15,962 nt of DNA, from contig JAEOTA010000016.1 in NCBI GenBank assembly GCA_016840085.1, forward strand, positions 1 to 15,962. Reading direction: 5' to 3'. The translations under genes were made by a program, and so were the position numbers. Within the stretch, counting starts at the first letter, position 1. Every line of letters starts with the position of its first letter. Of this stretch, positions 1-15,962 are shown one piece after another. Under the pieces are notes generated by a model that was given only the letters and a program-made list of their open reading frames with translations, did not search any database and was not told the DNA's origin. Source of the stretch: Promethearchaeota archaeon (GTDB lineage: Archaea > Asgardarchaeota > Lokiarchaeia > Sigyniarchaeales > SOKP01).

Positions 1-773
1 GGACAAAAGCAGAAATTTCAATAGACATGTATTCTGTGTCAGAAACATTTAATGTAACTGTTAGTTTGATAAATGATACATGGGGCGAATATACAATTAA
101 TTGGATTAATAGACCTGTGCATAGAGAGGTAATTACTACTTTTACAGTAGCCGAAGGCAAAATCTATAAATTCGATATTACTGATTATATAGAAGGAAGA
201 AATGATATATCTATTTGTCTTAATGCTTCAAATTACTTACAGAATGGATATGTCCAAGGAAATTCAAAAGAAGGAGCTTATTCTAGTGAAGATTATCCTC
301 AATTAATTTGGACATATCCAGAAACTGCTGAAATAACTGTAACAAGTCCTAAGTCTTCTGATGTATGGCGAGATCTTAACTCTTATGATATAAAATGGAC
401 ATCTAAGGGTTTAATCGAATATGTAAAAATAGAATTATATAAAGGCACTACTTTTATAGAAGAAATCACTTATTTGTTTGGTTATACTGAAAATGATGGG
501 GAATATGAATTCTATGTCTCAAGTTCAGAAAATTATAAAGGTACAGATTACAGAATAAAAATCATGGATTATGACGATTCAAAAGTCTATAACTATAGTG
601 ATTATTTTTCTATTAATGAAGAACCCCCATCTGACGGAAATGGAGATACTAATGGGGATGGAGATACGGATGGAAATGGAGAGGTTGCAATTCCTGGATA
701 TAATCTATTAATAATTATCGGTATGGCTCTTGGAACTGGTATTTTTCTAATGAAAAAATTAAGATTTAAATAA
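1..773 (+). CDS. Cell-surface protein, 5'-truncated by the window edge: DNRLRE/CBM96-like domain + Ser/Thr-rich Ig-like (Kre9/GPI-anchored-type) domain + Gly/Asp linker + Loki-CTERM-like sorting signal
   Basis: The frame is open upstream of the ATG at 27 (TKAEISIDM aligns with IKAEISLDV of the 7216 paralog). Motifs: W-x-E-x-x-I-x-W, FDIT, SKE...PQL (DNRLRE-like); ITVTSP...IKWTS...VKIELYKG...NDG.Y...YRIKI...SDYFSI (Ig-like). The C-terminus IPGYNLLIIIGMALGTGIFLMKKLRFK is motif + TM + basic tail. Confidence 0.85.
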   Translation, partial: TKAEISIDMYSVSETFNVTVSLINDTWGEYTINWINRPVHREVITTFTVAEGKIYKFDITDYIEGRNDISICLNASNYLQNGYVQGNSKEGAYSSEDYPQLIWTYPETAEITVTSPKSSDVWRDLNSYDIKWTSKGLIEYVKIELYKGTTFIEEITYLFGYTENDGEYEFYVSSSENYKGTDYRIKIMDYDDSKVYNYSDYFSINEEPPSDGNGDTNGDGDTDGNGEVAIPGYNLLIIIGMALGTGIFLMKKLRFK

Positions 774-774
774 A

Positions 775-789
775 TTTTTTTTCTTTTTT
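775..789 (+). terminator. Oligo-T tract, probable archaeal intrinsic terminator
   Basis: TTTTTTTTCTTTTTT immediately after the stop at 773. Confidence 0.5.
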
Positions 790-837
790 ATAAATTTGGA
801 TTAATATGCTCTCTCAAATGAGCAATGGAAAGTAGAA

Positions 838-1185: not shown

Positions 1186-1959
1186 ATGGCAGTAAAAGAA
1201 AGTAACAGAAAAATTACTATAGGAACTAAAGAATGGGCAGATAGTAATGTTAATTGTTATCTAGGATGCTCCAATGACTGTCGTTATTGTTATGCTAAAA
1301 AAATGGCAATTCGATTTAAAAGAAAGACTGCAAAAAATTGGAGAATAATGGTCCCTAATCAAAAGAATATTGACAAGGGTTATAGTAAACGAAAAGGGAG
1401 AATCATGTTTCCCACATCACATGACATAACAGATGCAAGCTTAAATAATTGTATAATAGTATTAAAAAAGCTTATTAGATCAAAAAATGAAGTCTTAATC
1501 ACAACAAAACCTAGATTTAATTGTGTCTTAGAAATCTGTAGAATATTTCAACAATATAAGAGGTATATTCAATTTCGATTTACAATCACCTCCATAAATA
1601 ATAAAATCTTGGGATTTTGGGAGCCCAGTGCACCATCGTTTGAAGAAAGATTTGATTCTTTAAAGTATGCTTATAAGCAAGGTTATAAGACGAGTATTTC
1701 TGTTGAACCTTTTTTAGATAAGGATCCATTTATTTTAATTGATATTTTGCGTCCTTATATAACAGAATCGATCTGGATTGGGAAGATGAATTATATTGGA
1801 CATAATATTGCTCCTGATATTGAGAAAAAGTATTATACTTTTATTCGAGAGATTAATTCAAAAGATAATTTACTGAAAATTGTGAAAAAGGCTGAATCAT
1901 ATAATGATCTAATTAGAATAAAAGATAGCATTTTTAACTCACTTGAGAACTATCAATAA
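1186..1959 (+). CDS. Radical SAM protein (SPL/Rv2578c-like core with DUF5131/Gp37-Gp68-like N-terminus)
   Basis: TKEWADSNVNCYLGCSNDCRYCYA contains CxxxCxxC. ITTK, FTITS...WEPSAPSFEERFDSL...GYKTSISVEP resemble SPL-like radical SAM enzymes. ATG at 1186 is preferred over TTG at 1135. Confidence 0.85.
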   Translation: MAVKESNRKITIGTKEWADSNVNCYLGCSNDCRYCYAKKMAIRFKRKTAKNWRIMVPNQKNIDKGYSKRKGRIMFPTSHDITDASLNNCIIVLKKLIRSKNEVLITTKPRFNCVLEICRIFQQYKRYIQFRFTITSINNKILGFWEPSAPSFEERFDSLKYAYKQGYKTSISVEPFLDKDPFILIDILRPYITESIWIGKMNYIGHNIAPDIEKKYYTFIREINSKDNLLKIVKKAESYNDLIRIKDSIFNSLENYQ

Positions 1960-2969
1960 CAGAATTCATTTAGAGGTTTAATCCTTCTTACTGCGATATC
2001 AAAGATATGTTTCATAAACTTTGCATTACAGTATTTAAATCTTGTTTCTCTAAGATATTTAATCGATTTTAGCCATTCAGCTCCAACATTCTCTCGACAG
2101 CAAAATAATAACGTGTAGAAAAAATTACCTTCCGATCGTACAGAGATTTCTTCAACTCTTCCAAATCCAATTGACTTTAGCTGTTTGATATATATAGAGC
2201 GACGCGCTTGAATTCCTGTATATTTATCTATTTCGCACCCATAGAAAAATTTATTCTTTTCTTGGTTATGCATTGAACGTGAAAATGCACTATCATGAAA
2301 TGTAATAATAAGATCTCCATATTCATGACACTCTCTTATCTTTTTTATTGTTTTGTATCCAATATCCATACCTTGGTTGTCTATTACCATTAGATAGTTC
2401 GGACAATCATATTTTTCTGTGATATTATTTAGCACATTAATGACCCATTCATTAGAGTCTATTTTCCCCTTATCAGGAGGTTCTATATTGAATTGCAATG
2501 AATTATTATAAAATTGATTTAAAGTTTCAAAGCGGCTCTTAATAACTCCTCTAATCTCAGGATCAATATCATTGATAAAATATGCACTAAACCCTTTTTT
2601 CTTTTTAAGGGAAATTAGAGCTACATTTATAGAAGTCCCAGGCATAATTAAAACGTCTTTTCCATTATTTTTTGTTAACTTTATCATCCCATAATTACTT
2701 AATGGATCAATAAAACAAGTGTCTATGAACTCCTGTTTTTGCAGAATTTTTAAATAAAGGTTTGAATAACTTCTAATGGCCAATTGTTTTATTGGCATCC
2801 ACCATCCTTTTCCATCTGGTCGTTGATAAAAGAACTTATTATTTTTTGGGAAATTTGGAATTTTCATCAAGCTTTTCCCTTCATTTATAAATCTTCTCAT
2901 GTTTGTTACATGATATTCTTGATCAGAACTTTTTTTTCTTTTTGTCGGAGCGTTATAAGAGGTCGTCAT
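1953..2969 (-). CDS. tcmP: Three-Cys-motif partner protein TcmP-like, Rossmann methyltransferase fold, divergent
   Basis: Ordered motifs W-x3-K-x2-AIRSY-x2-LY, FIDPLSNYG (cf. YIDxFAGxG), PGTSINVAL (cf. GSPxxAL), YFINDID, DSN, MVIDNQG (cf. FLDPxG), TIKKI, GDLIITF and FFYTLLFC. Adjacent to a radical SAM gene. ATG at 2969 is preferred over TTG at 3053. Confidence 0.75.
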   Translation of the reverse strand: MTTSYNAPTKRKKSSDQEYHVTNMRRFINEGKSLMKIPNFPKNNKFFYQRPDGKGWWMPIKQLAIRSYSNLYLKILQKQEFIDTCFIDPLSNYGMIKLTKNNGKDVLIMPGTSINVALISLKKKKGFSAYFINDIDPEIRGVIKSRFETLNQFYNNSLQFNIEPPDKGKIDSNEWVINVLNNITEKYDCPNYLMVIDNQGMDIGYKTIKKIRECHEYGDLIITFHDSAFSRSMHNQEKNKFFYGCEIDKYTGIQARRSIYIKQLKSIGFGRVEEISVRSEGNFFYTLLFCCRENVGAEWLKSIKYLRETRFKYCNAKFMKHIFDIAVRRIKPLNEFCY

Positions 2970-3162
2970 TTTTATCAAAAGGATGAATTCAACTGCTCTT
3001 TTTAAACTAGAAGACCATTTAGAATTTTCATAATTTAATGGTCTAATAATCAAAGCTTTATACTATAGAAAGTATTTATAAAATATTTAAAAAGACTTAG
3101 TATTAATCAGCTAATTCTAAATGCAATTCTTTTAATTTTTCATTTCTTAATATAATAATGAC

Positions 3163-3396
3163 ATGACTAATCCTGAGATTACAACTCAAAGAATTTTGTG
3201 GCTATTATCAAATCAATGGCTGCCTTTAAATAAAATTGCTGAGAATTTTCAGATAACAAAATTAACAGATAAGAAGTATTTGAATTTAAAATTAAAGGAG
3301 TTAAACCGCAAGAAGAAGATTGTATATATTTTTCATGTAAATGATATTTATTGGAGTTTTAACTCTTTTATCACTAATCCAATTATTACCGGTTAA
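3163..3396 (+). CDS. Small basic protein, possible winged helix-turn-helix
   Basis: ILWLLS...LPLNKIAENFQI...LNLKLKELNRKKKI...IYW follows a helix-helix-helix-wing pattern. Divergent from tcmP. Overlaps the next ORF by 56 nt. Confidence 0.5.
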   Translation: MTNPEITTQRILWLLSNQWLPLNKIAENFQITKLTDKKYLNLKLKELNRKKKIVYIFHVNDIYWSFNSFITNPIITG

Positions 3397-3987
3397 CGCT
3401 GAAGAGACGATATCATTGCTAAGCTACACATACAGACATCATTATTTCAAAATGGGGAATTTTGATTGTTATGTATGGGAATTTACTTCTTCTACTGAGG
3501 AGATTTTAGATCTTGCTTTAACAAAAAGGCAGTATGATGCCTTCTACAATATTTTCTTATCAGAATACACTGCTATCCTTAATAAACACAGCGGGTTTCA
3601 TGACTCAGGACGGTGGCGACCACCTAGCTCTAATACATGGCATTTTCTCTATATCAATAGAGGATATTCAACTACTTCACTCACCATAAATGACAATGTA
3701 CAGATAAATTATTATTTTCCTTGGATTCCATTAATATTGGGATTAATAATAGGAGTTCCATTAATAGCTATTACGACTTATTATACTCTTAAAAAAGTAA
3801 GAGAGAGAAAAGAAACGCTTATAAGAACGCCAGAACCATCAACTAAATTACCAATGCCCACTCCAGCTATTCAATCGTGTCAGCAATCTCAACAATCCAC
3901 TAAATTTGAATTTCGCCCTAAATGTGGGACAGAGTTACTATAGGGAAGTTCTGTACAAATTGCGGATTTGATATGAGTAAATTATAA
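3341..3987 (+). pseudogene. Signal peptide + beta-rich ectodomain + TM + Pro-rich linker + double zinc ribbon, with the zinc ribbon disrupted
   Basis: The ORF 3341-3943 ends FEFRPKCGTELL*. The -1 frame continues GKFCTNCGFDMSKL* (3943-3987), matching YCPNCGTTIPIEGKFCKHCGFELSNV of the 7216 gene. The first Cys position is CGC (Arg). The gene could still make a truncated membrane protein. Confidence 0.7.
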
Positions 3988-4038
3988 TTTTATAGATGTA
4001 AAATTTTTCATAGACTATATATATGAGAGGAATAAGAA

Positions 4039-4272
4039 ATGAATGTTGATGTTGATCTGATCTCATGTCAATTTCAAAATGAATATGAGATCAATTTTGA
4101 AATTTTTAAAAACGGTGAAGATGTCTTTACATTGATTTTTGAAATACCAAATACAGGGGACTTTTTTGTTAAAATAGATCAAGAACTAGTAGATAAAATG
4201 ACAAAAGCGTTTGGTGTAGTTTCAAAGGTTGGTAGCCGTTCTATTTCTTATGGATCAATTGTGAAACTTTAG
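4039..4272 (+). CDS. Small acidic hypothetical protein
   Basis: 77-aa ORF with ATG and GAGAGG upstream. No recognised family. Confidence 0.55.
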   Translation: MNVDVDLISCQFQNEYEINFEIFKNGEDVFTLIFEIPNTGDFFVKIDQELVDKMTKAFGVVSKVGSRSISYGSIVKL

Positions 4273-4631
4273 GAATAGTTTGGAATGTTTGGTAATCCCA
4301 TCAATGTATCTTATTTTTTTTTTCTTGAATACCTTCAAGAAAATTCTTTCCCTAAATTTTCATCGAAATCTGACTCTGAATTTAACCTTAAAAAGTATAA
4401 GTTAAACCATACTTGTATCAAGACAGAGATTTAAATAGTTCTTTTGATATCTTTATATAACTTTATTATTAGGTAAATCCATAGAGAAGAAAAATGAGAT
4501 TTATAATGAAGAAGGAATCTAAAAGAATACAGATTAAGTTTAAACCTCAACCTATAAGATTAAATCTTCAATGTCCTGTCTTCCTTTTTTTTAATTATAA
4601 ATTTATAACTTATATTAATTATATATCAAAT

Positions 4632-4639
4632 AAGGAGGT
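4632..4639 (+). promoter_or_regulatory. Shine-Dalgarno-like site AAGGAGGT
   Basis: Lies just upstream of the TTG at 4643. Confidence 0.55.
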
Positions 4640-4642
4640 ATT

Positions 4643-6430
4643 TTGAAGGCAATAATGGTGCATATGAAACAAAAGTTTACCTATGAACTCGAAGTAAAGT
4701 TTAATAAAGAATTTAGGTATCATACTAAAATTTATCAAGATATTATGGAAGAGATTTTGCCAAAAAAAATAGAGCAAAAATACTATAAAGATGCTCTAAA
4801 TTGGTTTTTTTATAGAGATAGAAAAGTCCCTTTATATGAAAAACATTCTATCCAAAGAATTGAAGTATATGAAGAAGATAGAATCTTAACTATTTATGCT
4901 AAGAAACAAACCGAAATGTTTAAGAATGTTAAATATCTTGCGTATAAAACTGGTTGGTATTTCTATATTACAGGGGCTCCTTTAAAGAAGGATATTGTCT
5001 CTAAAATTATCGATGATATCCCAAATCATAAAAAGAAAATTAGTTTTACTTGGTCCATATCCAAAAATATTACAATGGATTTAATACCGATTGAAAGTAG
5101 GATAAACAGAAATTCATATCTCTTAAAAATTCAAGATCAAGATTCAACTCAAGAAATAACTATTTTACTCGATGCTGGATTAGACAAGGATGGAATCAGG
5201 ATTTTAAGATCCCAAGTTAAGACTCTAAATCTTATTTTTATCAGTCATGCTCATTATGATCATACTTGTGGTTTAATGGATTTGATAAATGATTTTAAGA
5301 CCACCCCTATAATATCATCTCGTACTACATTTGAGTTCTTTATTCTATATAATTGGCATGTTGGCTCTTTATTTAAGAATAATCAGGATTTAATTAAAGA
5401 AATTATTCTGAGATATTATTTTATAAAAAATTTAGATATTATCGAGATAAATAAGGATTTTAGATTGAAATTTTTTTATGCAGGACATATGCCAGGAGCT
5501 TTAATGTTTTACATTGAATTGGGCGGATATAAATTTCTATATACAGGAGATTTTACGTATTATGATTATTTTCCCATTGCAGGAGTGAAAACACAGCAAA
5601 AGCTTCTACCTCGAAAAATCGATTTCTGCTTAGTTGAAGGTACTTCGAGTTCTCAACAATATGATGCACCATCACATATATTTAGCGTACTTAAAGATAA
5701 AATAACTGAAAGGATAAGACATTATAATCGAATTTTGATCTTAGCAGATTATGGGAGTACAGCAATGGTATATTTTTTTACATTATTTTATCATTTTAGA
5801 AAATCTCAAAAACAAAATGGGTTGGAAGCATTACGTCCTAATATTTATATGACCGAAAATTTAAAACGATTTTTCCAAATTTTAACATTTAACAACGAAT
5901 CCATTCATCCTTATTTGCAGAAAAATATAGGATTAGATTATAATCCTTTTCAGAGTGCTATTATTAAATGGCTAGAAGGATACCGAGATTTGAAAAGAGC
6001 TATAGAAAAAGGAGGAATCTTCATTTTACATGATGCAAACTTAAAAAATAAATTAGCTCAAAAAGCAGTAGAATTAATATCTAAATATAAAAATAATGTC
6101 ATTTTGCTATGTGGGCCTTTAAGAGAAAGACCTTCTATAGAATTAGCCTCAGGTAATGATAGAATTACTCTCGATTCTAACATTATCAACAACAAATCGT
6201 TTATTTGGAACCGATTATATCCCTCATTGCTTTTAAATCTTCATGCAGATGAAATCCAGTTATATAAATTGTTACAGAAGATAAATCCGGAGAAAATATG
6301 CTTTTTCCATCAAAATCCCAGTAAATTAACCGAAGTCCGTATGAACCTAAAGAGGAATTTTAAAGAATTAGAAAGTATGGCAATTTACCCTTATTCTGAA
6401 GACCAAATTCAGTTAATATCTGAAAAATAA
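4643..6430 (+). CDS. Metallo-beta-lactamase-fold beta-CASP nuclease (CPSF-73/aCPSF-like) with N-terminal extension
   Basis: Motifs in order: LLDAG (I), SHAHYDH (II, HxHxDH), YAGHMPGA (III), YTGDF (IV), VEGT (A), LHAD (B), FFH (C). A beta-CASP insert lies between A and B. Confidence 0.9.
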   Translation: MKAIMVHMKQKFTYELEVKFNKEFRYHTKIYQDIMEEILPKKIEQKYYKDALNWFFYRDRKVPLYEKHSIQRIEVYEEDRILTIYAKKQTEMFKNVKYLAYKTGWYFYITGAPLKKDIVSKIIDDIPNHKKKISFTWSISKNITMDLIPIESRINRNSYLLKIQDQDSTQEITILLDAGLDKDGIRILRSQVKTLNLIFISHAHYDHTCGLMDLINDFKTTPIISSRTTFEFFILYNWHVGSLFKNNQDLIKEIILRYYFIKNLDIIEINKDFRLKFFYAGHMPGALMFYIELGGYKFLYTGDFTYYDYFPIAGVKTQQKLLPRKIDFCLVEGTSSSQQYDAPSHIFSVLKDKITERIRHYNRILILADYGSTAMVYFFTLFYHFRKSQKQNGLEALRPNIYMTENLKRFFQILTFNNESIHPYLQKNIGLDYNPFQSAIIKWLEGYRDLKRAIEKGGIFILHDANLKNKLAQKAVELISKYKNNVILLCGPLRERPSIELASGNDRITLDSNIINNKSFIWNRLYPSLLLNLHADEIQLYKLLQKINPEKICFFHQNPSKLTEVRMNLKRNFKELESMAIYPYSEDQIQLISEK

Positions 6431-6794: not shown

Positions 6795-7156
6795 ATTAAA
6801 ACCTACTAAATTGTCTTTTTTTTACCTTCTTAATTAGGGGAATTATTACTGTTGGAAAATAAAAATTACTAATAAAAATGGGATGAGAGTAGCGATTTAT
6901 CGTTGAGACATTACATCTTACGCATAATTATATTTCAATGATATTTCATTTATAAAAATGATGGCTCCCGAATTTAAAGATGAAATATTAGCTTATTGAG
7001 TATTTCTACGATAATTTCATTTAAAATATAAGAATGAGAGTCATTAAGCTTTAATGAATTTAAACCATTTGAACAAGATCAATTAAATAATTATGAATTT
7101 TCTGAAAGTCAACTTGAAGTTAAGATTTAAATTTTAAGCTGATAATTTATTTATTG

Positions 7157-7188
7157 TATAGGGAACCATATAGGGATCACTATAAGGC
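7157..7188 (+). repeat. Imperfect 12-bp-period tandem repeat upstream of the 7216 gene
   Basis: TATAGGGAACCA / TATAGGGATCAC / TATAAGGC. Confidence 0.5.
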
Positions 7189-7215
7189 TTTAATTATGTT
7201 AAAAAAAGAGTTAAC

Positions 7216-8391
7216 ATGAAAAAGAAGATTTTATTTTTGGTTGGAGTTTTATTTATAGCTGTATTGGTGTTCTTTCCTTCCCCTACAAGAGCCATAATTA
7301 GAGATCAGACTATTTCAACAATAGCGGACAAGGATAGCTATGTAACTATTAGTGATCCAAATGCGAATTTTGGTGGAAGAGATTGGTTGACATTCGGATT
7401 TGACTTAGGTTTTTCTTCTTGGAATGAAGCATATTTTCACTTTAATTTTTCTGATAAACCGATTAATTGGATAAAAGCAGAAATTTCATTAGATGTATAT
7501 TATGTGTCAGAAACATTTAACATGACTGTATGTTTGATAAATAAGACGTGGAATGAATATGAGATTACTTGGTATGAAAGACCGGAGCATAGAGAAATAA
7601 TTACCACTTTTCCAGTAGCAGAAGAGAAAATCTATAAATTCAATATTACTAATTATATAGAGGGACGAGATGGCATTTCTGTATGTCTTAACATTTCGGA
7701 CCGTGAGCATAAAGGATATGCTAAAGCAAGATCAAAAGAAGGATTTTATTCTTGGAATCCAGAAGATGCCCCTCAATTAATTTGGACATACCCAGAGACT
7801 GTGGAAATAACTGTTATAAGTCCTAAATCTTCTGATGTTTGGGAAGATTTTTATTCGTATGACATAAAATGGACATCAAAAGGTTCAATCGAGCATGTAA
7901 AAATTCAATTATATAAAGGATCTACATTCATAGAAGATATTACATATACATATACTGAGAATGACGGTGAATATGAATTCTATGTCTTTAGTTCAGAAAA
8001 TTATAAAGGTACAGATTACAGAATAAAAATCACGGATTATGACGATTCAAGAGTTTACGATTACAGTGATTATTTTTCAATTAATGAAGAGCCCCCATCT
8101 GATGGGAAAGGAGACGGTAATACTCAATCAATAGCATATGTTCCTGGAATAGGAATTATCATAGGTGTAATTGGAGGTCTTGCGGCAGTAGGGGTAGTAC
8201 TTTATTTAATATTAAGCCAGCAAAGAAAGAAAAGAATTATTTCACCACCAATTCCCCCAATACACCCTTATCAAACTTCAGTTCCCCCACAAACACCTTC
8301 AATGCTCAAATATTGTCCTAATTGTGGCACTACAATTCCTATAGAAGGTAAATTTTGTAAACATTGTGGCTTTGAACTTAGTAATGTTTAA
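7216..8391 (+). CDS. Type I membrane protein: signal peptide + DNRLRE/CBM96-like domain + Ig-like domain + TM + Pro-rich linker + cytoplasmic double zinc ribbon
   Basis: MKKKILFL... signal peptide. ADKDSYV...PNANFGG...AYFHFNF...AEISL...W.E..ITW...SKE...PQL is DNRLRE-like. TM GIGIIIGVIGGLAAVGVVLYLIL is followed by QQRKKR and CPNCG-x7-FCKHCG. Confidence 0.9.
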   Translation: MKKKILFLVGVLFIAVLVFFPSPTRAIIRDQTISTIADKDSYVTISDPNANFGGRDWLTFGFDLGFSSWNEAYFHFNFSDKPINWIKAEISLDVYYVSETFNMTVCLINKTWNEYEITWYERPEHREIITTFPVAEEKIYKFNITNYIEGRDGISVCLNISDREHKGYAKARSKEGFYSWNPEDAPQLIWTYPETVEITVISPKSSDVWEDFYSYDIKWTSKGSIEHVKIQLYKGSTFIEDITYTYTENDGEYEFYVFSSENYKGTDYRIKITDYDDSRVYDYSDYFSINEEPPSDGKGDGNTQSIAYVPGIGIIIGVIGGLAAVGVVLYLILSQQRKKRIISPPIPPIHPYQTSVPPQTPSMLKYCPNCGTTIPIEGKFCKHCGFELSNV

Positions 8392-8723
8392 CTTTGATCT
8401 TAGTAAATTATTCTTTTTTATAATCTTAAATTTCTATTTATATCTTAGAAGAGGGGTATTGTCTAGATATGTAACTACCAAAGAGAGATAGTACACACCT
8501 TTGGTAAAGATATTGCTATAAGAGTGTCTGTGTAAATATGTTAACCATTGTTTGAGTTATAGATGTAACAACGCCAATCGTTCCGATTTAATTTTCGCTA
8601 TGAAAATTTAACAAAACTTTTTCATATTATAAATTTTAAATAGTTGATTTTTCCTTTAATAATTGTAGGAATATTAATAGTAAAGATAAAAATACAAATA
8701 CAATAGTAAAATGATGAATTAGA

Positions 8724-9115
8724 ATGACAGAAATTCATGAAGAAATTAATCAACGGATAAAAGAGCTTTCAGATATCTTAAGCATTGATGATTCAAGACT
8801 AACCAATGCTTCTATTATCTTTGGACTTTATAAATATTTATTACCTTATCAAAAACGAAGAGATAAGCTTCATAAAGAGAAGGTATATAAACAGACTGAT
8901 GAGATATTTTGATTTATTGTATTTATACCATGTTGAAATATTTCTTGTGGGTTAAAAAGTATAAAAGATGGAGCGATGTAATCTATCAGATAAGAACTAA
9001 TATTTTTAAAAGATTACACATTTCTGGGTTTCAGAGTGTCGGAAAATCAAGAGAAATGATTAAAGCCTTAGTCATAAAAAATGTTAATACTAAACTCTCT
9101 GAATCAAAAGATTAA
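8724..9115 (+). other. Two short overlapping hypothetical ORFs (8724-8912 and 8909-9115), possibly one frameshifted gene
   Basis: The ORFs abut in different frames, and the third frame is open across the junction (YINRLMRYFDLLYLYHVEIFL). No recognised motif. Confidence 0.35.
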
Positions 9116-11249: not shown

Positions 11250-11815
11250 TATATAATTATTGATGAAAACTATTTCACATCTGATATTTTATAAATCTAA
11301 ATATATCATGAATAATAAAAAAATTTTAACCTATTCTAATTGCCCCTCTTAAGTTCTTAAAAGTTACTTCCTTGAGAACAAGTTGTTTATTTGGCAGATT
11401 TATTTCAAAAACACCACCTTTTTTTTCCCTTAATTAGAACATCCTTAAATTTCATATTAATCTCTTCAATTATCAAGTTATGAATTGGTTGTGTAACTAT
11501 TTTTAGGGCAATTTTTCTTAAATTTCTACGGATTGTTATGTAATTTGATGCAATTGAACATTTTTTAATATTAGATGAAGGCTAATATTGAAGCCGGCAA
11601 TTTACTTTTCTATAGGATCCATTGTTATCTTTCACTACTTCAATATTTATAATAAATAAAATGCTCACACTTAAAAAAATGGGTTTACTCACTTAGAGTT
11701 TTGAGATTTTTAACTACTAAATATATAATTTTAAAATATTTATAACGCACTAAATAATTTTCCATATTTTAATTCAAAATATATAAATAGTCAATTGAAG
11801 GTTATATTATTTAGT

Positions 11816-12226
11816 ATGTCAATTTCATCAAAAACTATAAATGTAATCCTTCTCAGTGGCGTAGTTCTCTTTTTTATTGGAACCTTTTCAATTATTTTTT
11901 ATTTCATAATGTGTTCTGTAATTGAGATAATTATATCTCCTTTATATTCTATAATTGGATGGTTATTATTTGCTATTGGAGGATTTTTTATTGGAATAAC
12001 ACCAAGGAAGTATTACCATACTATAAAAAGGGGGAATAAGAGAACCTTGGAAATAGAATTACTTATTATAGGTTTATGTGGATTAATATTAGGTACTTTT
12101 ATATCTATAGCTGTTGATATTTATATTTATAGAAATGATGGGGTATTTCCCTTTCGAACATTATTATTTTTTACTGCTGGTTTTGTAGGATTTATTATAG
12201 TAAAAATAATACGGAAAAAAAAGTAG
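11816..12226 (+). CDS. Hypothetical integral membrane protein, about 4 TM helices
   Basis: Four hydrophobic segments and a basic C-terminus (IIRKKK). ATG at 11816. Confidence 0.75.
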   Translation: MSISSKTINVILLSGVVLFFIGTFSIIFYFIMCSVIEIIISPLYSIIGWLLFAIGGFFIGITPRKYYHTIKRGNKRTLEIELLIIGLCGLILGTFISIAVDIYIYRNDGVFPFRTLLFFTAGFVGFIIVKIIRKKK

Positions 12227-12323
12227 TAGGCGAAATTATTTATTGCGTTATAAATAGTTTATAATGATAAATGTGATATTATAATAATGTTAAAGAGTCT
12301 TTACTTTTTATCGAGTGATTATA

Positions 12324-13934: not shown

Positions 13935-14285
13935 TTAGTCCTGCACTTCATATAATCTAAAACAACTGCAACATTCTAATTGATATTTTCTTGGTAAAAG
14001 TCCACTTTTTTGTAATTGCCAACATAATAATACATATCCTCTATTTAACAATTCATTTTGATTTTTACACTTTTCACAGTATTTATGTTTCTGATAAAAT
14101 TTCAAAAAATTTTCATCATTCCAAATAACACAATCCTTATAATAGACACAATCTTGGCAATACTCCCTAGAGGGAATTCCTTCATTTTGTAACTCTTTTG
14201 TTTTACATGTTACATTTGTAATTGACAAAAAATCTAATATATATTCTTTTGTAAAATTTAATTCTGGATAAAACAAAATTCTCAA
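13935..14285 (-). CDS. Cys-rich hypothetical protein
   Basis: 10 Cys including CQDC, CEKC and CCSC. The TTG start is uncertain. Confidence 0.6.
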   Translation of the reverse strand: MRILFYPELNFTKEYILDFLSITNVTCKTKELQNEGIPSREYCQDCVYYKDCVIWNDENFLKFYQKHKYCEKCKNQNELLNRGYVLLCWQLQKSGLLPRKYQLECCSCFRLYEVQD

Positions 14286-14580
14286 ATAAAATTGATAAAA
14301 AATTATTCCGTTTTATATTAACTTTTATATGATTTAAATGTTTATGAGATCATTTCGACAATTTACCTTTAATCCCTATTTATTTTTGCTTATAAGTAAT
14401 ACTCATTTATCTCAATATCAGTATGCTTAATCTTTTTTTATCAATTGGATTACATTAGAGCGATACATTAATAATTTATGGATAAAGGTTTTATTGGGAA
14501 ACGTAAGAAAAACTTAGAAAAAGACACACGTTCTTGGACATGTTTATGTCAATAAAATCTAGGTCAAAGATAGATTTAGT

Positions 14581-15405
14581 TTGAAAAGCCAGATTGAGTC
14601 CGATTATGATATAATAGAAAATCTTGAAAAATTCGAAAAAGAATTTGAAAGTAGGTATCAAGATAAGACCTTTACTACTTTTGAAGAATGGCGCGATGAA
14701 TTTTTATTTTATTTAGAAGCCCCCGCTGAGCAAGTAATAGAGCAAGTAGAAGTAATAACAGAAGAAAGGGAATCTATTATATCATTATTAAGAAGAAGAC
14801 TTTTAAGAGAAAGACCTGAAAAGATTAAGATCACAAAGGAACGCTATGAGCCGCCCATAAAACTATTACCTAAAGAAAAGATTTGGAAGTATCTTTTCTT
14901 CCCCTCAGTGTTGTTATTAATAGAATTTATATTCATTTGGGCTTTCTTTCCAGAGCTTCAATTCTTACATGGCTATTCTGTTATAACGACAGGTGTATTA
15001 TTATCGCTTATCGGTCTAGGATTAGTGATAAATTACCGCCAAGTAACAAATTGGGTTTATTTCATTCATAGGCACGGATTGTTTTTCATCTTTGCGACAT
15101 TGACGCCAGTTATACTATTTACACCACTTAGATTTTCAGAAGTATATATTTGGGTATATAACTTCACACTCGCCTTCTTTTTTCTCATAATAATTCCCTT
15201 ATGTGTTATGGGGTTTATAGGGGCATTTTATTATCATTACTTTCCTTCATTGGCAGAGTGGAAAGACAAGCGAAACGTTAAAAGGATGACTTATAGATTT
15301 ATAGCAGAATGCCCATACGGAACATTTAAAGATTCATATGAAAGTGCTAAGGCATTTGCCGGATTCATACAAGATCAAGATAAGGTCGGAGATTTGCTCG
15401 AATAA
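14581..15405 (+). CDS. Hypothetical membrane protein: charged N-terminal domain + about 4-5 TM helices; true start uncertain
   Basis: 274-aa ORF with an acidic/charged N-terminal third followed by hydrophobic segments. The TTG start may be an artefact of an upstream frameshift (ATG 14546 frame MSIKSRSKIDLV stops at 14582). Confidence 0.75.
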   Translation: MKSQIESDYDIIENLEKFEKEFESRYQDKTFTTFEEWRDEFLFYLEAPAEQVIEQVEVITEERESIISLLRRRLLRERPEKIKITKERYEPPIKLLPKEKIWKYLFFPSVLLLIEFIFIWAFFPELQFLHGYSVITTGVLLSLIGLGLVINYRQVTNWVYFIHRHGLFFIFATLTPVILFTPLRFSEVYIWVYNFTLAFFFLIIIPLCVMGFIGAFYYHYFPSLAEWKDKRNVKRMTYRFIAECPYGTFKDSYESAKAFAGFIQDQDKVGDLLE

Positions 15406-15709
15406 TTTTGCTCAAGAATATATATAAGTAGTAGTATCGAATTGTATAGTTTGTTGGTCTTCCAAGATAATTGAGACTATGACATCCCAAATTATCTCCC
15501 CATCATCATACACGATTAAAATCTCTCTAATTTTTTTTGTTTGTAAATATTTTATTTGGCAATTTAAAATAATAGTTAAAAAAATTTAGTAATAAAAAGA
15601 CATAAAAATTTTGATATAATTAAGGTAGCAGTTTTAATATGTGAATATTCATAGAATTAATTAGATGTTGTTAATTTAAATTTAAAAGTAAATGGAGGGA
15701 ATTTATAGA

Positions 15710-15962
15710 ATGCTAAATTTCACAGTAAAAGAATCAAAAATAATACTTTTAATAGGAACTTGTTTGACCTCTACAATCTTATTAATTTACTTATTTAGGA
15801 GATTAACATTCGGATTTTCTGAAATACCATATTACATAAGCCTTATTTTTATAGCTGGGCTGTTTTTATTTATGTTTGGATTAATTGCTTTAAAGAGTGC
15901 ATCAAAAAAAAATTATCATATCATTAAGTTGAAAAATAAATACGAAGTAAAATCTGAAGATA
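15710..15962 (+). CDS. Hypothetical membrane protein, 3'-truncated by the window edge (not in the supplied ORF track)
   Basis: ATG at 15710 (alternative in-frame ATG at 15692), GGAGG at 15694-15698. Open to the end: MLNFTVKESKIILLIGTCLTSTILLIYLFRRLTFGFSEIPLHKPYFIAGLFLFMFGLIALKSASKKNYHIIK..., two TM helices. Confidence 0.7.
   Translation, partial: MLNFTVKESKIILLIGTCLTSTILLIYLFRRLTFGFSEIPYYISLIFIAGLFLFMFGLIALKSASKKNYHIIKLKNKYEVKSED

What the first reader, a model, noticed from the sequence alone, without database searches (positions are those of the whole stretch)
1186..3396. Archaeal radical SAM + TcmP-like module of atypical type: candidate nucleic-acid modification or defence system
Seen: a radical SAM gene and a TcmP-like gene converge and overlap by 7 nt (1953-1959), and a small wHTH-like gene is divergent from tcmP. 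Known: TcmP usually partners DUF5131 (phage Gp37/Gp68) proteins that carry a Cx6Cx2C three-Cys motif, and the function of the pair is not established. Here the partner has a DUF5131-like start (TKEWADSNVN..GC), a canonical Cx3Cx2C and an SPL/Rv2578c-like body (WEPSAPSFEERF), so it looks intermediate between the families. Inference: a variant two-enzyme base-modification, repair or anti-virus system in Asgard archaea. Several nucleases in the same window would fit an accessory defence context.
Basis: partly seen in the sequence, partly recalled or inferred. Interest (0 to 1): 0.72.

Follow-up and report, generated by a model that had tools for sequence, protein, structure and literature searches.

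The report
Asgard radical-SAM plus TcmP gene pair
Two tail-to-tail genes in an Asgard archaeon encode a DNA-repair-lyase-like iron-sulfur (radical SAM) enzyme and a very diverged methyltransferase-shaped "TcmP" partner; this is an archaeal variant of a widespread, catalogued gene pair that nobody has tested, so its chemistry is still unknown.

Summary
A 257-aa radical SAM gene (1186-1959, +) and a 338-aa gene (1953-2969, -) converge and overlap by 7 nt.

- **Minus-strand protein.** It misses the TcmP model TIGR04474, but it is a diverged TcmP. Its profile recovers proteins of which 79 of 90 hit TIGR04474. It matches PADLOC PDC-M41A. Its model (pLDDT 95) is a class I methyltransferase fold closest to RlmJ (Z 16.4).
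- **Radical SAM protein.** It has an invariant Cx3Cx2C, a DUF5131-like N-terminus just under Pfam's cut-off, and an SPL-like core. The catalytic Cys140 of SPL appears not to be conserved.
- **Linkage.** A TcmP gene sits next to the radical SAM gene in 11 of 20 Asgard loci, in every orientation. Fused forms exist. The cultured Promethearchaeum syntrophicum MK-D1 has the same convergent, overlapping layout.
- **Evolution.** The radical SAM gene is conserved (55-70% identity) while TcmP partners are swapped. In viral contigs the radical SAM gene is mostly solo (2 of 22 have TcmP).
- **Distribution.** It is patchy (9-17 of 301 genomes), and some loci lie beside defence genes.
- **Not supported.** The "wHTH" gene and the "several nucleases" are not part of the module.

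The function is untested. The most likely role is an accessory module that modifies or repairs DNA bases. This scan has noted the same Asgard variant several times on other DNA.

The parts
1186..1959 (+). Radical SAM enzyme, 257 aa. It has a Cx3Cx2C cluster motif (C28/C32/C35), flanking tyrosines Y34 and Y36, a DUF5131-like N-terminus and an SPL-like core. The ORF is open from a TTG at 1135.
   Evidence: - Pfam: Radical_SAM 29.6 bits (cut-off 29.5); DUF5131 25.6 bits (cut-off 28.9), residues 16-86 only.
- NCBIfam: rSAM_mob_pairB 40 bits against a cut-off of 410.
- PADLOC: PDC-M41B 3e-6.
- Invariant residues.
- AF2 model: pLDDT 90.8.
- Structure matches: SPL Z 15.1 and SuiB Z 15.5.
- Profile search of solved structures: best match SPL, E 0.002.
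1953..2969 (-). Diverged TcmP-family protein, 338 aa from M29 (the ORF is open to a TTG at 3053). It has a class I methyltransferase fold of the RlmJ/Trm1 type. Invariant residues are K89, G122 and D225 in the numbering of the 366-aa ORF.
   Evidence: - No TIGR04474 or Pfam hit.
- PADLOC PDC-M41A 9e-10.
- The A1 profile finds 465 representative clusters; 79 of 90 aligned members hit TIGR04474.
- BLASTP E 9e-21 to L027, a TcmP scoring 97 bits.
- AF2 pLDDT 95.4, pTM 0.92.
- RlmJ Z 16.4, Trm1 Z 14.7.
- Motif conservation.
1953..1959 (.). 7-nt overlap of the two 3' ends (tail-to-tail).
   Evidence: The same tight tail-to-tail layout occurs in MK-D1 (9-nt overlap), in L014 (6-nt gap) and in L035 (1-nt gap).
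2970..3162 (.). AT-rich spacer upstream of the TcmP-like gene. It is the presumed promoter region. It is shared with the unrelated divergent 77-aa ORF.
   Evidence: Sequence. Inference only; no archaeal promoter test was run.

Best explanation
This is an Asgard-lineage variant of the TcmP / 'three-Cys-motif' radical-SAM gene pair. That pair is defined by NCBIfam TIGR04474 plus Pfam DUF5131, and PADLOC lists it as the untested defence candidates PDC-M41 and PDC-M30. It is an optional, horizontally moving two-enzyme module that most likely acts on DNA bases.

**Proposed working (inferred).**
- The 257-aa enzyme binds a [4Fe-4S] cluster through C28, C32 and C35. It cleaves S-adenosylmethionine to a 5'-deoxyadenosyl radical and abstracts a hydrogen atom from a nucleobase or sugar, as its nearest characterised relative, spore photoproduct lyase, does on DNA.
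- The tyrosines on either side of the third cysteine (Y34-C35-Y36) are invariant, as in SPL. This suggests a similar radical relay.
- The TcmP-like partner is an RlmJ/Trm1-type methyltransferase-fold protein. It keeps a cofactor-binding loop, the acidic residue at the end of strand 2, and a lysine-aspartate pair. It probably binds SAM and holds or flips the target base, and it may methylate it.
- TcmP evolves and is exchanged far faster than the radical SAM enzyme. I therefore read it as the target-choosing part and the radical SAM enzyme as the conserved chemical engine.
- The biological role is most likely marking or altering DNA in conflicts between hosts, viruses and mobile elements.

**Shown here:** homology, folds, linkage, fusion, patchy distribution and partner swapping.

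**Inferred:** the substrate, the chemistry and the role.
For: **Identity.** Both proteins hit the two components of one PADLOC candidate, PDC-M41A at 9e-10 and PDC-M41B at 3e-6. The TcmP-like profile retrieves TIGR04474 proteins: 79 of 90, and L027/L028 at 97 and 108 bits.

**Folds.** The TcmP-like model has pLDDT 95.4 and matches RlmJ at Z 16.4 with 217 residues aligned. The radical SAM model has pLDDT 90.8 and matches SPL at Z 15.1 with the highest identity, 16%.

**Linkage.** 11 of 20 Asgard radical SAM loci carry a TcmP gene directly alongside, in convergent, co-directional, reversed and divergent orders. The same convergent overlapping pair is present in Promethearchaeum syntrophicum MK-D1. 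Fused TcmP::radical-SAM proteins of 634 aa occur in another Asgard family.

**Partner swapping.** The window's radical SAM sits in a well-supported clade of 8, all TcmP-linked (100/97). Their partners belong to three TcmP subfamilies. Radical SAM identity is 63-70%, while TcmP identity is 45% or lower, or the proteins cannot be aligned.

**Accessory nature.** The TcmP-like gene is in 9 of 301 and the radical SAM gene in 17 of 301 sampled Asgard genomes, and the TcmP-like gene was found in only 1 of the 22 other sampled genomes of the genus. The window is a mosaic contig built from repeats. The own-genome paralogue lies among a kinase, Mrr, GHKL ATPase, Eco57I-type methylase and R.HinP1I genes. 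Neighbours at other loci include type IIG RM, NsnB, AriA/GajA-like ATPases and NERD+UvrD.

**DNA as the likely substrate.** SPL is the closest solved relative by profile. RlmJ's active site is reported to resemble DNA m6A methyltransferases (PMC3814359).
Against: - Nothing has been tested. PDC-M systems are untested candidates (bioRxiv 10.1101/2024.01.29.577857).
- The window protein itself fails TIGR04474 and PF07505.
- TcmP lacks the (N/D)PP(Y/F/W) motif of amino-methyltransferases. It has D-N-Q-G here and D-P/N-x-G in the wider family, so methyl transfer is not assured.
- The structural match of the radical SAM enzyme is generic. SuiB, RlmN and viperin score within about 1.5 Z of SPL.
- In viral contigs the radical SAM gene is mostly solo: 2 of 22 close relatives have TcmP. 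The enzyme therefore does not need TcmP.
- No nuclease or other effector is linked, which is unusual for a modification-based defence.
- Many neighbours are housekeeping genes such as hydantoinase, PfkB and Ras GTPases.
- SplB-like radical SAM genes are SOS-regulated in bacteria (PMC8565304, PMC3765255). This points to repair instead.
Confidence: 0.5

Rival explanations
1. DNA-damage repair module. The radical SAM enzyme is an SPL-like lyase that directly reverses a specific base lesion, such as a thymine-dimer-type or alkyl/radical adduct. TcmP is a lesion-recognising, base-flipping helper. Viruses carry the lyase alone to mend their packaged DNA.
For: - SPL is the best solved-structure profile match, and the Y-C-Y around the third cluster cysteine is invariant as in SPL.
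- JGI names homologues 'DNA repair photolyase'.
- SplB-like COG1533 genes are reported as SOS-regulated in several bacterial phyla and linked to ImuB-C repair genes (PMC8565304, PMC3765255).
- Earlier notes of this scan report LexA boxes in front of bacterial TcmP/DUF5131 pairs (not checked here).
- The solo radical SAM gene is common in viral contigs.
Against: - The position aligned to SPL's hydrogen-donor Cys140 is Thr or Ser in all 35 relatives. This rests on a weak HMM alignment.
- Distribution is patchy. The gene is absent from most genomes of the same genus.
- The TcmP partner is fast-diverging and swapped, which is not expected for a lesion reader.
- The own-genome paralogue and several other loci sit among restriction and defence genes.
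- Archaea have no LexA system, so the bacterial regulation argument does not transfer.
Confidence: 0.27
2. RNA modification. The pair modifies a tRNA or rRNA nucleotide. The radical SAM enzyme would act in the way RlmN, Cfr or TYW1 do, and TcmP would be an RlmJ/Trm1-like RNA methyltransferase.
For: The best structural neighbours of the TcmP-like model are rRNA and tRNA methyltransferases: RlmJ Z 16.4, Trm1 Z 14.7, TYW4 Z 13.7. RlmN is among the radical SAM matches at Z 14.4.
Against: - Translation-machinery modifiers are normally conserved within a lineage. This pair is in 9-17 of 301 Asgard genomes, can be multi-copy in one genome (G195 has three radical SAM copies and three TcmP-type partners) and occurs in viral contigs.
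- Partner swapping does not fit a fixed RNA target.
- No tRNA or rRNA gene is nearby.
Confidence: 0.08
3. No functional pairing. The two genes are independent cargo that happen to lie side by side in a variable region.
For: The radical SAM gene is often found without TcmP in viruses and in 9 of 20 cellular loci. The orientation is not conserved.
Against: - TcmP genes of three subfamilies lie directly next to closely related radical SAM genes in 11 of 20 loci, at gaps from -9 to about 300 nt.
- Single-polypeptide fusions exist.
- Both components of PADLOC PDC-M41 are hit.
- In other Asgard genomes, TcmP genes sit next to DUF5131 or other radical SAM genes in 14 of the 16 loci where both sides of TcmP could be read.
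Confidence: 0.03

Closest known systems
TcmP / three-Cys-motif protein pair (NCBIfam TIGR04474 + Pfam PF07505 DUF5131 'phage Gp37/Gp68'); PADLOC-DB v2 candidates PDC-M41 and PDC-M30 (Payne et al., bioRxiv 10.1101/2024.01.29.577857)
   Same: - It is a two-gene module of a methyltransferase-fold TcmP protein and a small radical-SAM-type Fe-S protein.
- Both window proteins hit PDC-M41A/B.
- The N-terminal 'T-K-x-E-W-..-GC' block and the C-Y-A after the cluster are shared with DUF5131.
- Distribution is mobile and patchy, and the pair is found in cells and viruses.
- Canonical DUF5131+TcmP pairs also exist in Asgard genomes (L032-L034).
   Different: - The radical SAM partner has Cx3Cx2C instead of Cx6Cx2C. 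It matches PF07505 only over its first third and below the cut-off, and its body is SPL-like.
- The TcmP partner is too diverged for TIGR04474.
- The function of the reference pair is itself unknown.
Spore photoproduct lyase SplB/SPL (PDB 4FHC/4FHD; Pfam PF20903) and the 'SplB-like DNA repair photolyase' group COG1533 (PA0069, Rv2578c families)
   Same: - Radical SAM core with Cx3Cx2C.
- Tyrosines flanking the third cysteine.
- The 'FRF-x-I-x-S ... EP-x-x-x-S/P-F-x-x-R' block aligns.
- Z 15.1 with 216 residues aligned.
- A DNA substrate is plausible.
   Different: - It is about 85 residues shorter than SPL (257 against 341 aa).
- There is no PF20903 hit for the window protein.
- NCBIfam PA0069 and Rv2578c scores of 21-27 bits are far below their cut-offs of 360-430.
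- SPL's Cys140 position is Thr/Ser.
- It is partnered with TcmP, which SPL is not.
RlmJ (23S rRNA m6A2030 methyltransferase) and Trm1 (tRNA m2,2G26 methyltransferase)
   Same: - Closest solved folds to the TcmP-like protein: Z 16.4 and 14.7.
- An N-terminal helix carries an invariant Lys, and motif IV carries an invariant Asp. This is analogous to RlmJ K18 and D164, which are essential for catalysis (PMC3814359). The equivalence is inferred from the aligned ranges and is not residue-checked.
   Different: - Only 9-17% identity, and no sequence-level hit.
- Motif IV is D-N-Q-G, not DPPY.
- The gene is accessory, not housekeeping.
- It is always next to or fused with a radical SAM enzyme.

Membership tests
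TcmP (NCBIfam TIGR04474, three-Cys-motif partner protein) | Scores above the curated TIGR04474 cut-off (53 bits) | tested here: not met
   No hit even at E 10 for the 339- and 366-aa forms. The own genome gives no TIGR04474 match.
TcmP (NCBIfam TIGR04474, three-Cys-motif partner protein) | Homologous to bona fide TcmP proteins (profile or transitive) | tested here: met
   - The A1 profile finds 465 representative clusters.
- 79 of 90 aligned members hit TIGR04474.
- The window protein matches L027 at BLASTP E 9e-21, and L027 scores 97 bits on TIGR04474.
- P0026 (40% identity) scores 55.8 bits and is named TcmP by NCBI.
TcmP (NCBIfam TIGR04474, three-Cys-motif partner protein) | Encoded next to a three-Cys / radical-SAM-type partner | tested here: met
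   7-nt overlap with the radical SAM gene. The same family is adjacent to the radical SAM gene in L009, L011, L012, L013, L133 and L136.
TcmP (NCBIfam TIGR04474, three-Cys-motif partner protein) | Class I (Rossmann-like) methyltransferase fold with cofactor loop and motif IV Asp | tested here: met
   - pLDDT 95.4.
- RlmJ Z 16.4, Trm1 Z 14.7.
- The loop is D-P-L-S-N-Y-G, against D-L-x-A-G-S-G in the wider family.
- There is an acidic residue at the end of strand 2 and an invariant D in D-N-Q-G.
- SAM binding itself was not tested.
DUF5131 (Pfam PF07505, phage Gp37/Gp68) | Scores above Pfam gathering threshold (28.9 bits) over the full model | tested here: not met
   25.6 bits, residues 16-86 against model positions 5-86 of 243. 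The genome search gives 25.4 bits.
DUF5131 (Pfam PF07505, phage Gp37/Gp68) | Cx6Cx2C three-Cys motif | tested here: not met
   The window has C-SND-C-RY-C (Cx3Cx2C), invariant in 35 relatives. True Asgard DUF5131 proteins have, for example, C-TKISPG-C-EH-C.
Radical SAM superfamily (Pfam PF04055) | Cx3Cx2C cluster motif, family score and partial TIM-barrel fold | tested here: met
   - 29.6 bits against a cut-off of 29.5, so only marginal by score.
- The motif is invariant.
- The model matches many radical SAM structures at Z 13-15.5.
Spore photoproduct lyase (Pfam PF20903 / SplB) | Family HMM score | tested here: not met
   No PF20903 hit for the window protein at E 1. The paralogue scores 17.2 bits against a cut-off of 27. 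The profile match to the SPL structures has E 0.002 only.
Spore photoproduct lyase (Pfam PF20903 / SplB) | Hydrogen-donor cysteine (Cys140 in G. thermodenitrificans SPL) | tested here: not met
   In the HMM alignment to the C140S and C140A chains, residue 140 aligns with T77 of 'F-P-T-S-H-D'. That column is T/S in the family. The alignment is weak (accuracy about 0.74), so this is provisional.
Spore photoproduct lyase (Pfam PF20903 / SplB) | Tyrosines flanking the third cluster cysteine (radical relay) | tested here: met
   Y34-C35-Y36 is invariant and aligns with H-Y-C-Y of SPL. Their role in SPL is taken from my own knowledge of the SPL literature and was not checked here.
PADLOC PDC-M41 (candidate defence pair) | Both components present and adjacent | tested here: met
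   PDC-M41A 9.1e-10 on the TcmP-like protein and PDC-M41B 3.2e-6 on the radical SAM protein. PADLOC has no curated cut-offs in this tool.
PADLOC PDC-M41 (candidate defence pair) | Anti-virus activity | not testable with these tools
   PDC systems are untested predictions from 'guilt by embedding'.
Radical SAM mobile pair protein B (NCBIfam TIGR04470) | Equivalog cut-off 410 bits | tested here: not met
   40.4 bits, E 2e-10, covering residues 21-216. This is a distant relative only.

The most novel reading that the evidence does not exclude
TcmP is a rapidly diversifying, swappable specificity subunit. It directs a conserved SPL-like radical SAM enzyme to chosen DNA bases or sequences. Together they would form a radical-chemistry DNA-marking or immunity system shared by bacteria, phages, archaeal viruses and Asgard archaea. 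No such system has been described. It could be tested directly in the cultured Promethearchaeum syntrophicum MK-D1, which carries the same convergent pair.
Probability: 0.25. Interest if true: 0.8.

Novelty: new variant of a known kind. Interest (0 to 1): 0.45.

Why it matters
The TcmP/radical-SAM pair is one of the more widespread two-gene modules with no known function. It occurs in bacteria, phages, archaea and archaeal viruses, and it is listed only as an untested defence candidate.

The Asgard form helps in four ways:
- It links DUF5131 to canonical Cx3Cx2C, SPL-like enzymes.
- It shows that the radical SAM half is the conserved engine and TcmP the exchangeable half.
- It provides natural fusions.
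- It is present in a cultured Asgard strain.

If the chemistry is a new DNA modification or a new radical repair reaction, it would add a new class to either DNA-modification-based immunity or direct damage reversal. As a single locus, however, this window adds one more member to a variant this scan has already met several times.

Tried and rejected
- **Contig look-up.** The neighbourhoods of the closest metagenomic homologues (55-69% identity) could therefore not be read. Shared contig lengths only suggest co-location. One metagenome locus (L136) shows a co-directional 256-aa ORF of radical-SAM size followed by a TcmP-like ORF; the identity of the first ORF was not checked.
- **Direct family assignment.** Assigning the minus-strand protein by Pfam, NCBIfam or PHROGs gave nothing. 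A profile search of solved structures also gave nothing.
- **288-aa neighbour of the own-genome paralogue (C84).** hhalign to A1 found no similarity. The ESM Atlas gives only a lead to PP_RS20740-like and O-methyltransferase-like clusters.
- **wHTH gene as a regulator of the pair.** Rejected. It has no homologue beside any other pair, and its C-terminal third belongs to a repeat shared with contigs C84 and C10.
- **'Several nucleases'.** Rejected.
- **Viperin-like reading.** PADLOC pVip hits on the paralogue cover only the cluster motif (E 6e-4, residues 28-66). Rejected.
- **SPL orthology.** Rejected (see the membership test).
- **Empty-site test in the genus.** The window is a whole, mosaic contig whose pieces recur on C10, C66, C78 and C84. 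C78 carries window segments 776-869, 8485-8906 and 14584-15518 contiguously without the pair. These are paralogous repeats, not a clean empty site.
- **Deposited phage genomes (INPHARED).** One weak radical SAM hit and no TcmP-like hit.
- **RNA genes.** No tRNA or Rfam family in the window.
Full report
**1. What is in the sequence**

The window is an entire 15,962-bp contig (C1) of a 4.68-Mb Asgard (Promethearchaeota, Loki-type) MAG with 28-30% G+C. Named relatives of the same genus and family are 'Promethearchaeota archaeon Loki_b32' and similar.

On the + strand an ORF runs from 1135 to 1959. Homologues begin at the ATG at 1186, which gives 257 aa. On the - strand an ORF runs from 1953 to 3053. 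Homologues begin at M29, so the gene is 1953-2969 and encodes 338 aa. The two stop codons interlock, so the genes converge and overlap by 7 nt.

A 77-aa ORF (3163-3396) is divergent from the minus-strand gene. Its HTH assignment rests on E values of 0.04-0.09. No relative of it lies near any other copy of the pair. Its last 30 residues fall inside a repeat that recurs on contigs C84 and C10. It is a bystander.

**2. The radical SAM protein**

Family scores:
- Pfam Radical_SAM 29.6 bits, against a cut-off of 29.5.
- Pfam DUF5131 25.6 bits, against a cut-off of 28.9. The match covers only residues 16-86.
- NCBIfam gives only distant hits: rSAM_mob_pairB 40 bits against 410, and PA0069 and Rv2578c at 21-27 bits against 360-430.
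- PHROGs gives phrog_13321 at 2e-16, and PADLOC gives PDC-M41B at 3e-6.

Across 35 relatives the invariant residues include G-T-K-E-W, G27-C28-x3-C32-x-Y34-C35-Y36-A37, H79, K108-P109, F-R-F-T, E146, R155 and S-x-E-P. An extra cysteine upstream of the cluster is not conserved.

A profile of the family finds spore photoproduct lyase as the only meaningful solved relative (E 0.002). The alignment covers the cluster motif and the 'FRF...EP...SF..R' block. The AF2 model has pLDDT 90.8 and is a radical SAM core. SPL scores Z 15.1 with 216 residues aligned and 16% identity. That ties with SuiB at Z 15.5, and many other radical SAM enzymes follow at Z 13-14.5.

In the HMM alignment, SPL's hydrogen-donor Cys140 falls on Thr77. 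The protein is therefore SPL-like but not an SPL orthologue.

The two families are already grouped together in RadicalSAM.org's Megacluster 5 (PMC9477430).

**3. The partner protein**

It has no Pfam, NCBIfam or solved-structure hit, but it hits PADLOC PDC-M41A at 9e-10.

Close homologues number 28 and all are from Asgard MAGs or metagenomes. One of them is named TcmP by NCBI. A profile search of 1.84 billion representatives gives 465 clusters. Of 90 aligned members, 79 hit TIGR04474. Two distant members of the window's own family score 97 and 108 bits against the 53-bit cut-off.

The AF2 model (pLDDT 95.4, pTM 0.92) is a class I methyltransferase fold. RlmJ (Z 16.4, rmsd 3.4 Å, 217 residues) and Trm1 (Z 14.7) stand above the generic methyltransferases at about Z 12.5.

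Three columns are invariant across the wide family:
- a Lys in the N-terminal helix;
- the last Gly of the cofactor loop;
- the Asp of motif IV.

The end of strand 2 always carries Asp or Glu. In RlmJ the corresponding K18 and D164 are essential (PMC3814359). I infer the equivalence from the aligned ranges only.

TcmP lacks the DPPY-type motif. It has D-N-Q-G here. The protein may therefore bind SAM and a flipped base without being a conventional amino-methyltransferase.

**4. Linkage**

In a sample of 301 Asgard genomes, the TcmP-like family is in 9 and the radical SAM subfamily (E ≤ 1e-30) is in 17.

I read 20 radical SAM loci. Eleven have a TcmP gene directly alongside:
- five of the window's type: the window itself (convergent) and L009, L011, L012 and L013 (radical SAM upstream, same strand);
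- six with bona fide TIGR04474 proteins (83-197 bits): downstream in L010, convergent in L014, upstream in L015, L017 and L019, and divergent in L023.

Promethearchaeum syntrophicum MK-D1, a cultured strain, carries the same two families convergent with a 9-nt overlap.

Other Asgard TcmP genes sit beside several kinds of partner:
- canonical DUF5131 with Cx6Cx2C;
- other Cx3Cx2C radical SAM enzymes;
- a Cx3Cx3C type;
- two tandem SPL-like enzymes.

In one family TcmP is fused to the radical SAM enzyme in a single 634-aa protein.

**5. How the two halves evolve**

The window's radical SAM lies in a strongly supported clade of eight, all TcmP-linked (100/97). Their partners belong to three TcmP subfamilies that are barely alignable with each other. 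Against the window, radical SAM identity is 63-70%. TcmP identity is 45% within the subfamily and 33% or lower, or local-only, between subfamilies. On the tree the TcmP-linked state needs at least 7 changes.

IMG/VR holds at least 307 viral stretches that encode relatives. Of the 22 closest (37-51% identity), only 2 have a TcmP gene within 6 kb. This holds even when the search uses all TcmP subfamilies.

The radical SAM enzyme is therefore the conserved unit and can stand alone. TcmP is an exchangeable add-on found mainly in cellular copies.

**6. Context**

This window shows no defence genes by PADLOC and only one MBL-fold protein. It is a mosaic of repeats around paralogous CBM96/Kre9-type surface-protein genes.

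The genome's second radical SAM copy (53% identity, contig C84) lies in a clear defence island. That island holds a PD-T4-6-like kinase, Mrr, a GHKL ATPase, an Eco57I-type methylase and R.HinP1I. The copy sits next to an unrelated 288-aa protein instead of TcmP.

I scanned 61 neighbours of the pair in ten other loci. Defence-type hits include AriA/GajA/HEC-like ATPases, NsnB, MADS components, type IIG and type II restriction enzymes, NERD+UvrD and IetA. Plain metabolic and GTPase genes are also present. This is suggestive but is not a statistical test.

**7. Reading**

The identity is secure, about 0.9: this is a diverged Asgard variant of the TcmP/three-Cys radical SAM pair, PADLOC PDC-M41/M30. 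That pair is an untested 'guilt-by-embedding' candidate.

The function is inferred. I favour an accessory DNA-base-modifying module in which TcmP supplies target choice and the radical SAM enzyme supplies the chemistry (0.5).

The main rival is direct DNA-damage reversal (0.27). SplB-like genes are SOS-regulated in bacteria, and viruses carry the enzyme alone. RNA modification (0.08) and chance adjacency (0.03) are unlikely.

**8. Novelty**

The library holds no paper on the pair's function. Only four papers mention the terms at all.

This scan has already noted the bacterial pair in hundreds of windows. It has noted the Asgard Cx3Cx2C variant several times on other DNA. My results agree with those notes and add:
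- the solo state of the radical SAM gene in viruses;
- the quantified partner swapping;
- the SPL Cys140 and Y-C-Y comparison;
- the MK-D1 instance.

I class it as a new variant of a known but uncharacterised kind, of moderate interest.

**Limits**

- No multimer prediction was possible.
- All function statements are inference.

Noticed in passing
window 11721-12272: A stretch of about 530 bp (11730-12256) is 92-97% identical in four other species-level genomes of the genus, while the rest of the window matches them at 70% or lower, or not at all. It is bracketed by 40-nt inverted repeats (11721-11760 / 12233-12272, 88% complementary). It holds a 143-aa ORF (11795-12226) with no Pfam hit. It looks like a small mobile element.
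   Followed up: partly
window 4341-4389: A 45-50-nt intergenic sequence upstream of the MBL-fold gene recurs at 84-94% identity at many places in most genomes of the genus. It may be a dispersed short repeat or a regulatory element. No Rfam or tRNA match was found.
   Followed up: no
window 1-808, 3347-3988, 7111-8114, 8435-8906, 14577-15520, 15632-15962: The contig is a mosaic of segments repeated at 76-97% identity on contigs C3, C10, C66, C78 and C84 of the same assembly. Window segment 1-646 also matches 7469-8114 at 80%, which reflects paralogous CBM96 + Kre9/KNH surface-protein genes. Both contig ends lie in repeats, so the assembly broke there.
   Followed up: partly
L007 (G000:C84) 3428-17632: This is the own-genome defence island. 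It holds a PD-T4-6-like protein kinase, an Mrr_cat protein, a paralogous radical SAM (7066-7866), a 288-aa PP_RS20740-like protein (an ESM Atlas lead only), a GHKL ATPase (618 aa), a 193-aa protein, an Eco57I-type methylase, a decayed radical SAM fragment at about 14255-14536 with five stop codons, and an R.HinP1I-like nuclease. A homologue of the 193-aa protein also follows the radical SAM gene in L019.
   Followed up: partly
L029 (G199:C68) 1478-3382; L030; L031; L039 3361-4437; L043 2553-3629: These are radical SAM partners of TcmP with a Cx3Cx3C motif (G-C-S-H-G-C-K-Y-P-C-Y-A). They occur either as separate 358-aa proteins with an N-terminal extra domain or fused behind TcmP in one 634-aa protein.
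   Followed up: partly
L027 (G048:C321) 2413-5760; L028 (G039:C58): Two tandem SPL-like radical SAM genes (379 and 396 aa, both with G-C-P-F-N-C-A-Y-C-Y) directly precede a TcmP gene. This is a three-gene form of the module.
   Followed up: no
L133 (Promethearchaeum syntrophicum MK-D1, NZ_CP042905.2 299915-308937) 4025-5809: The cultured Asgard strain carries the same TcmP-like / radical SAM pair, convergent with a 9-nt overlap.
   Followed up: partly
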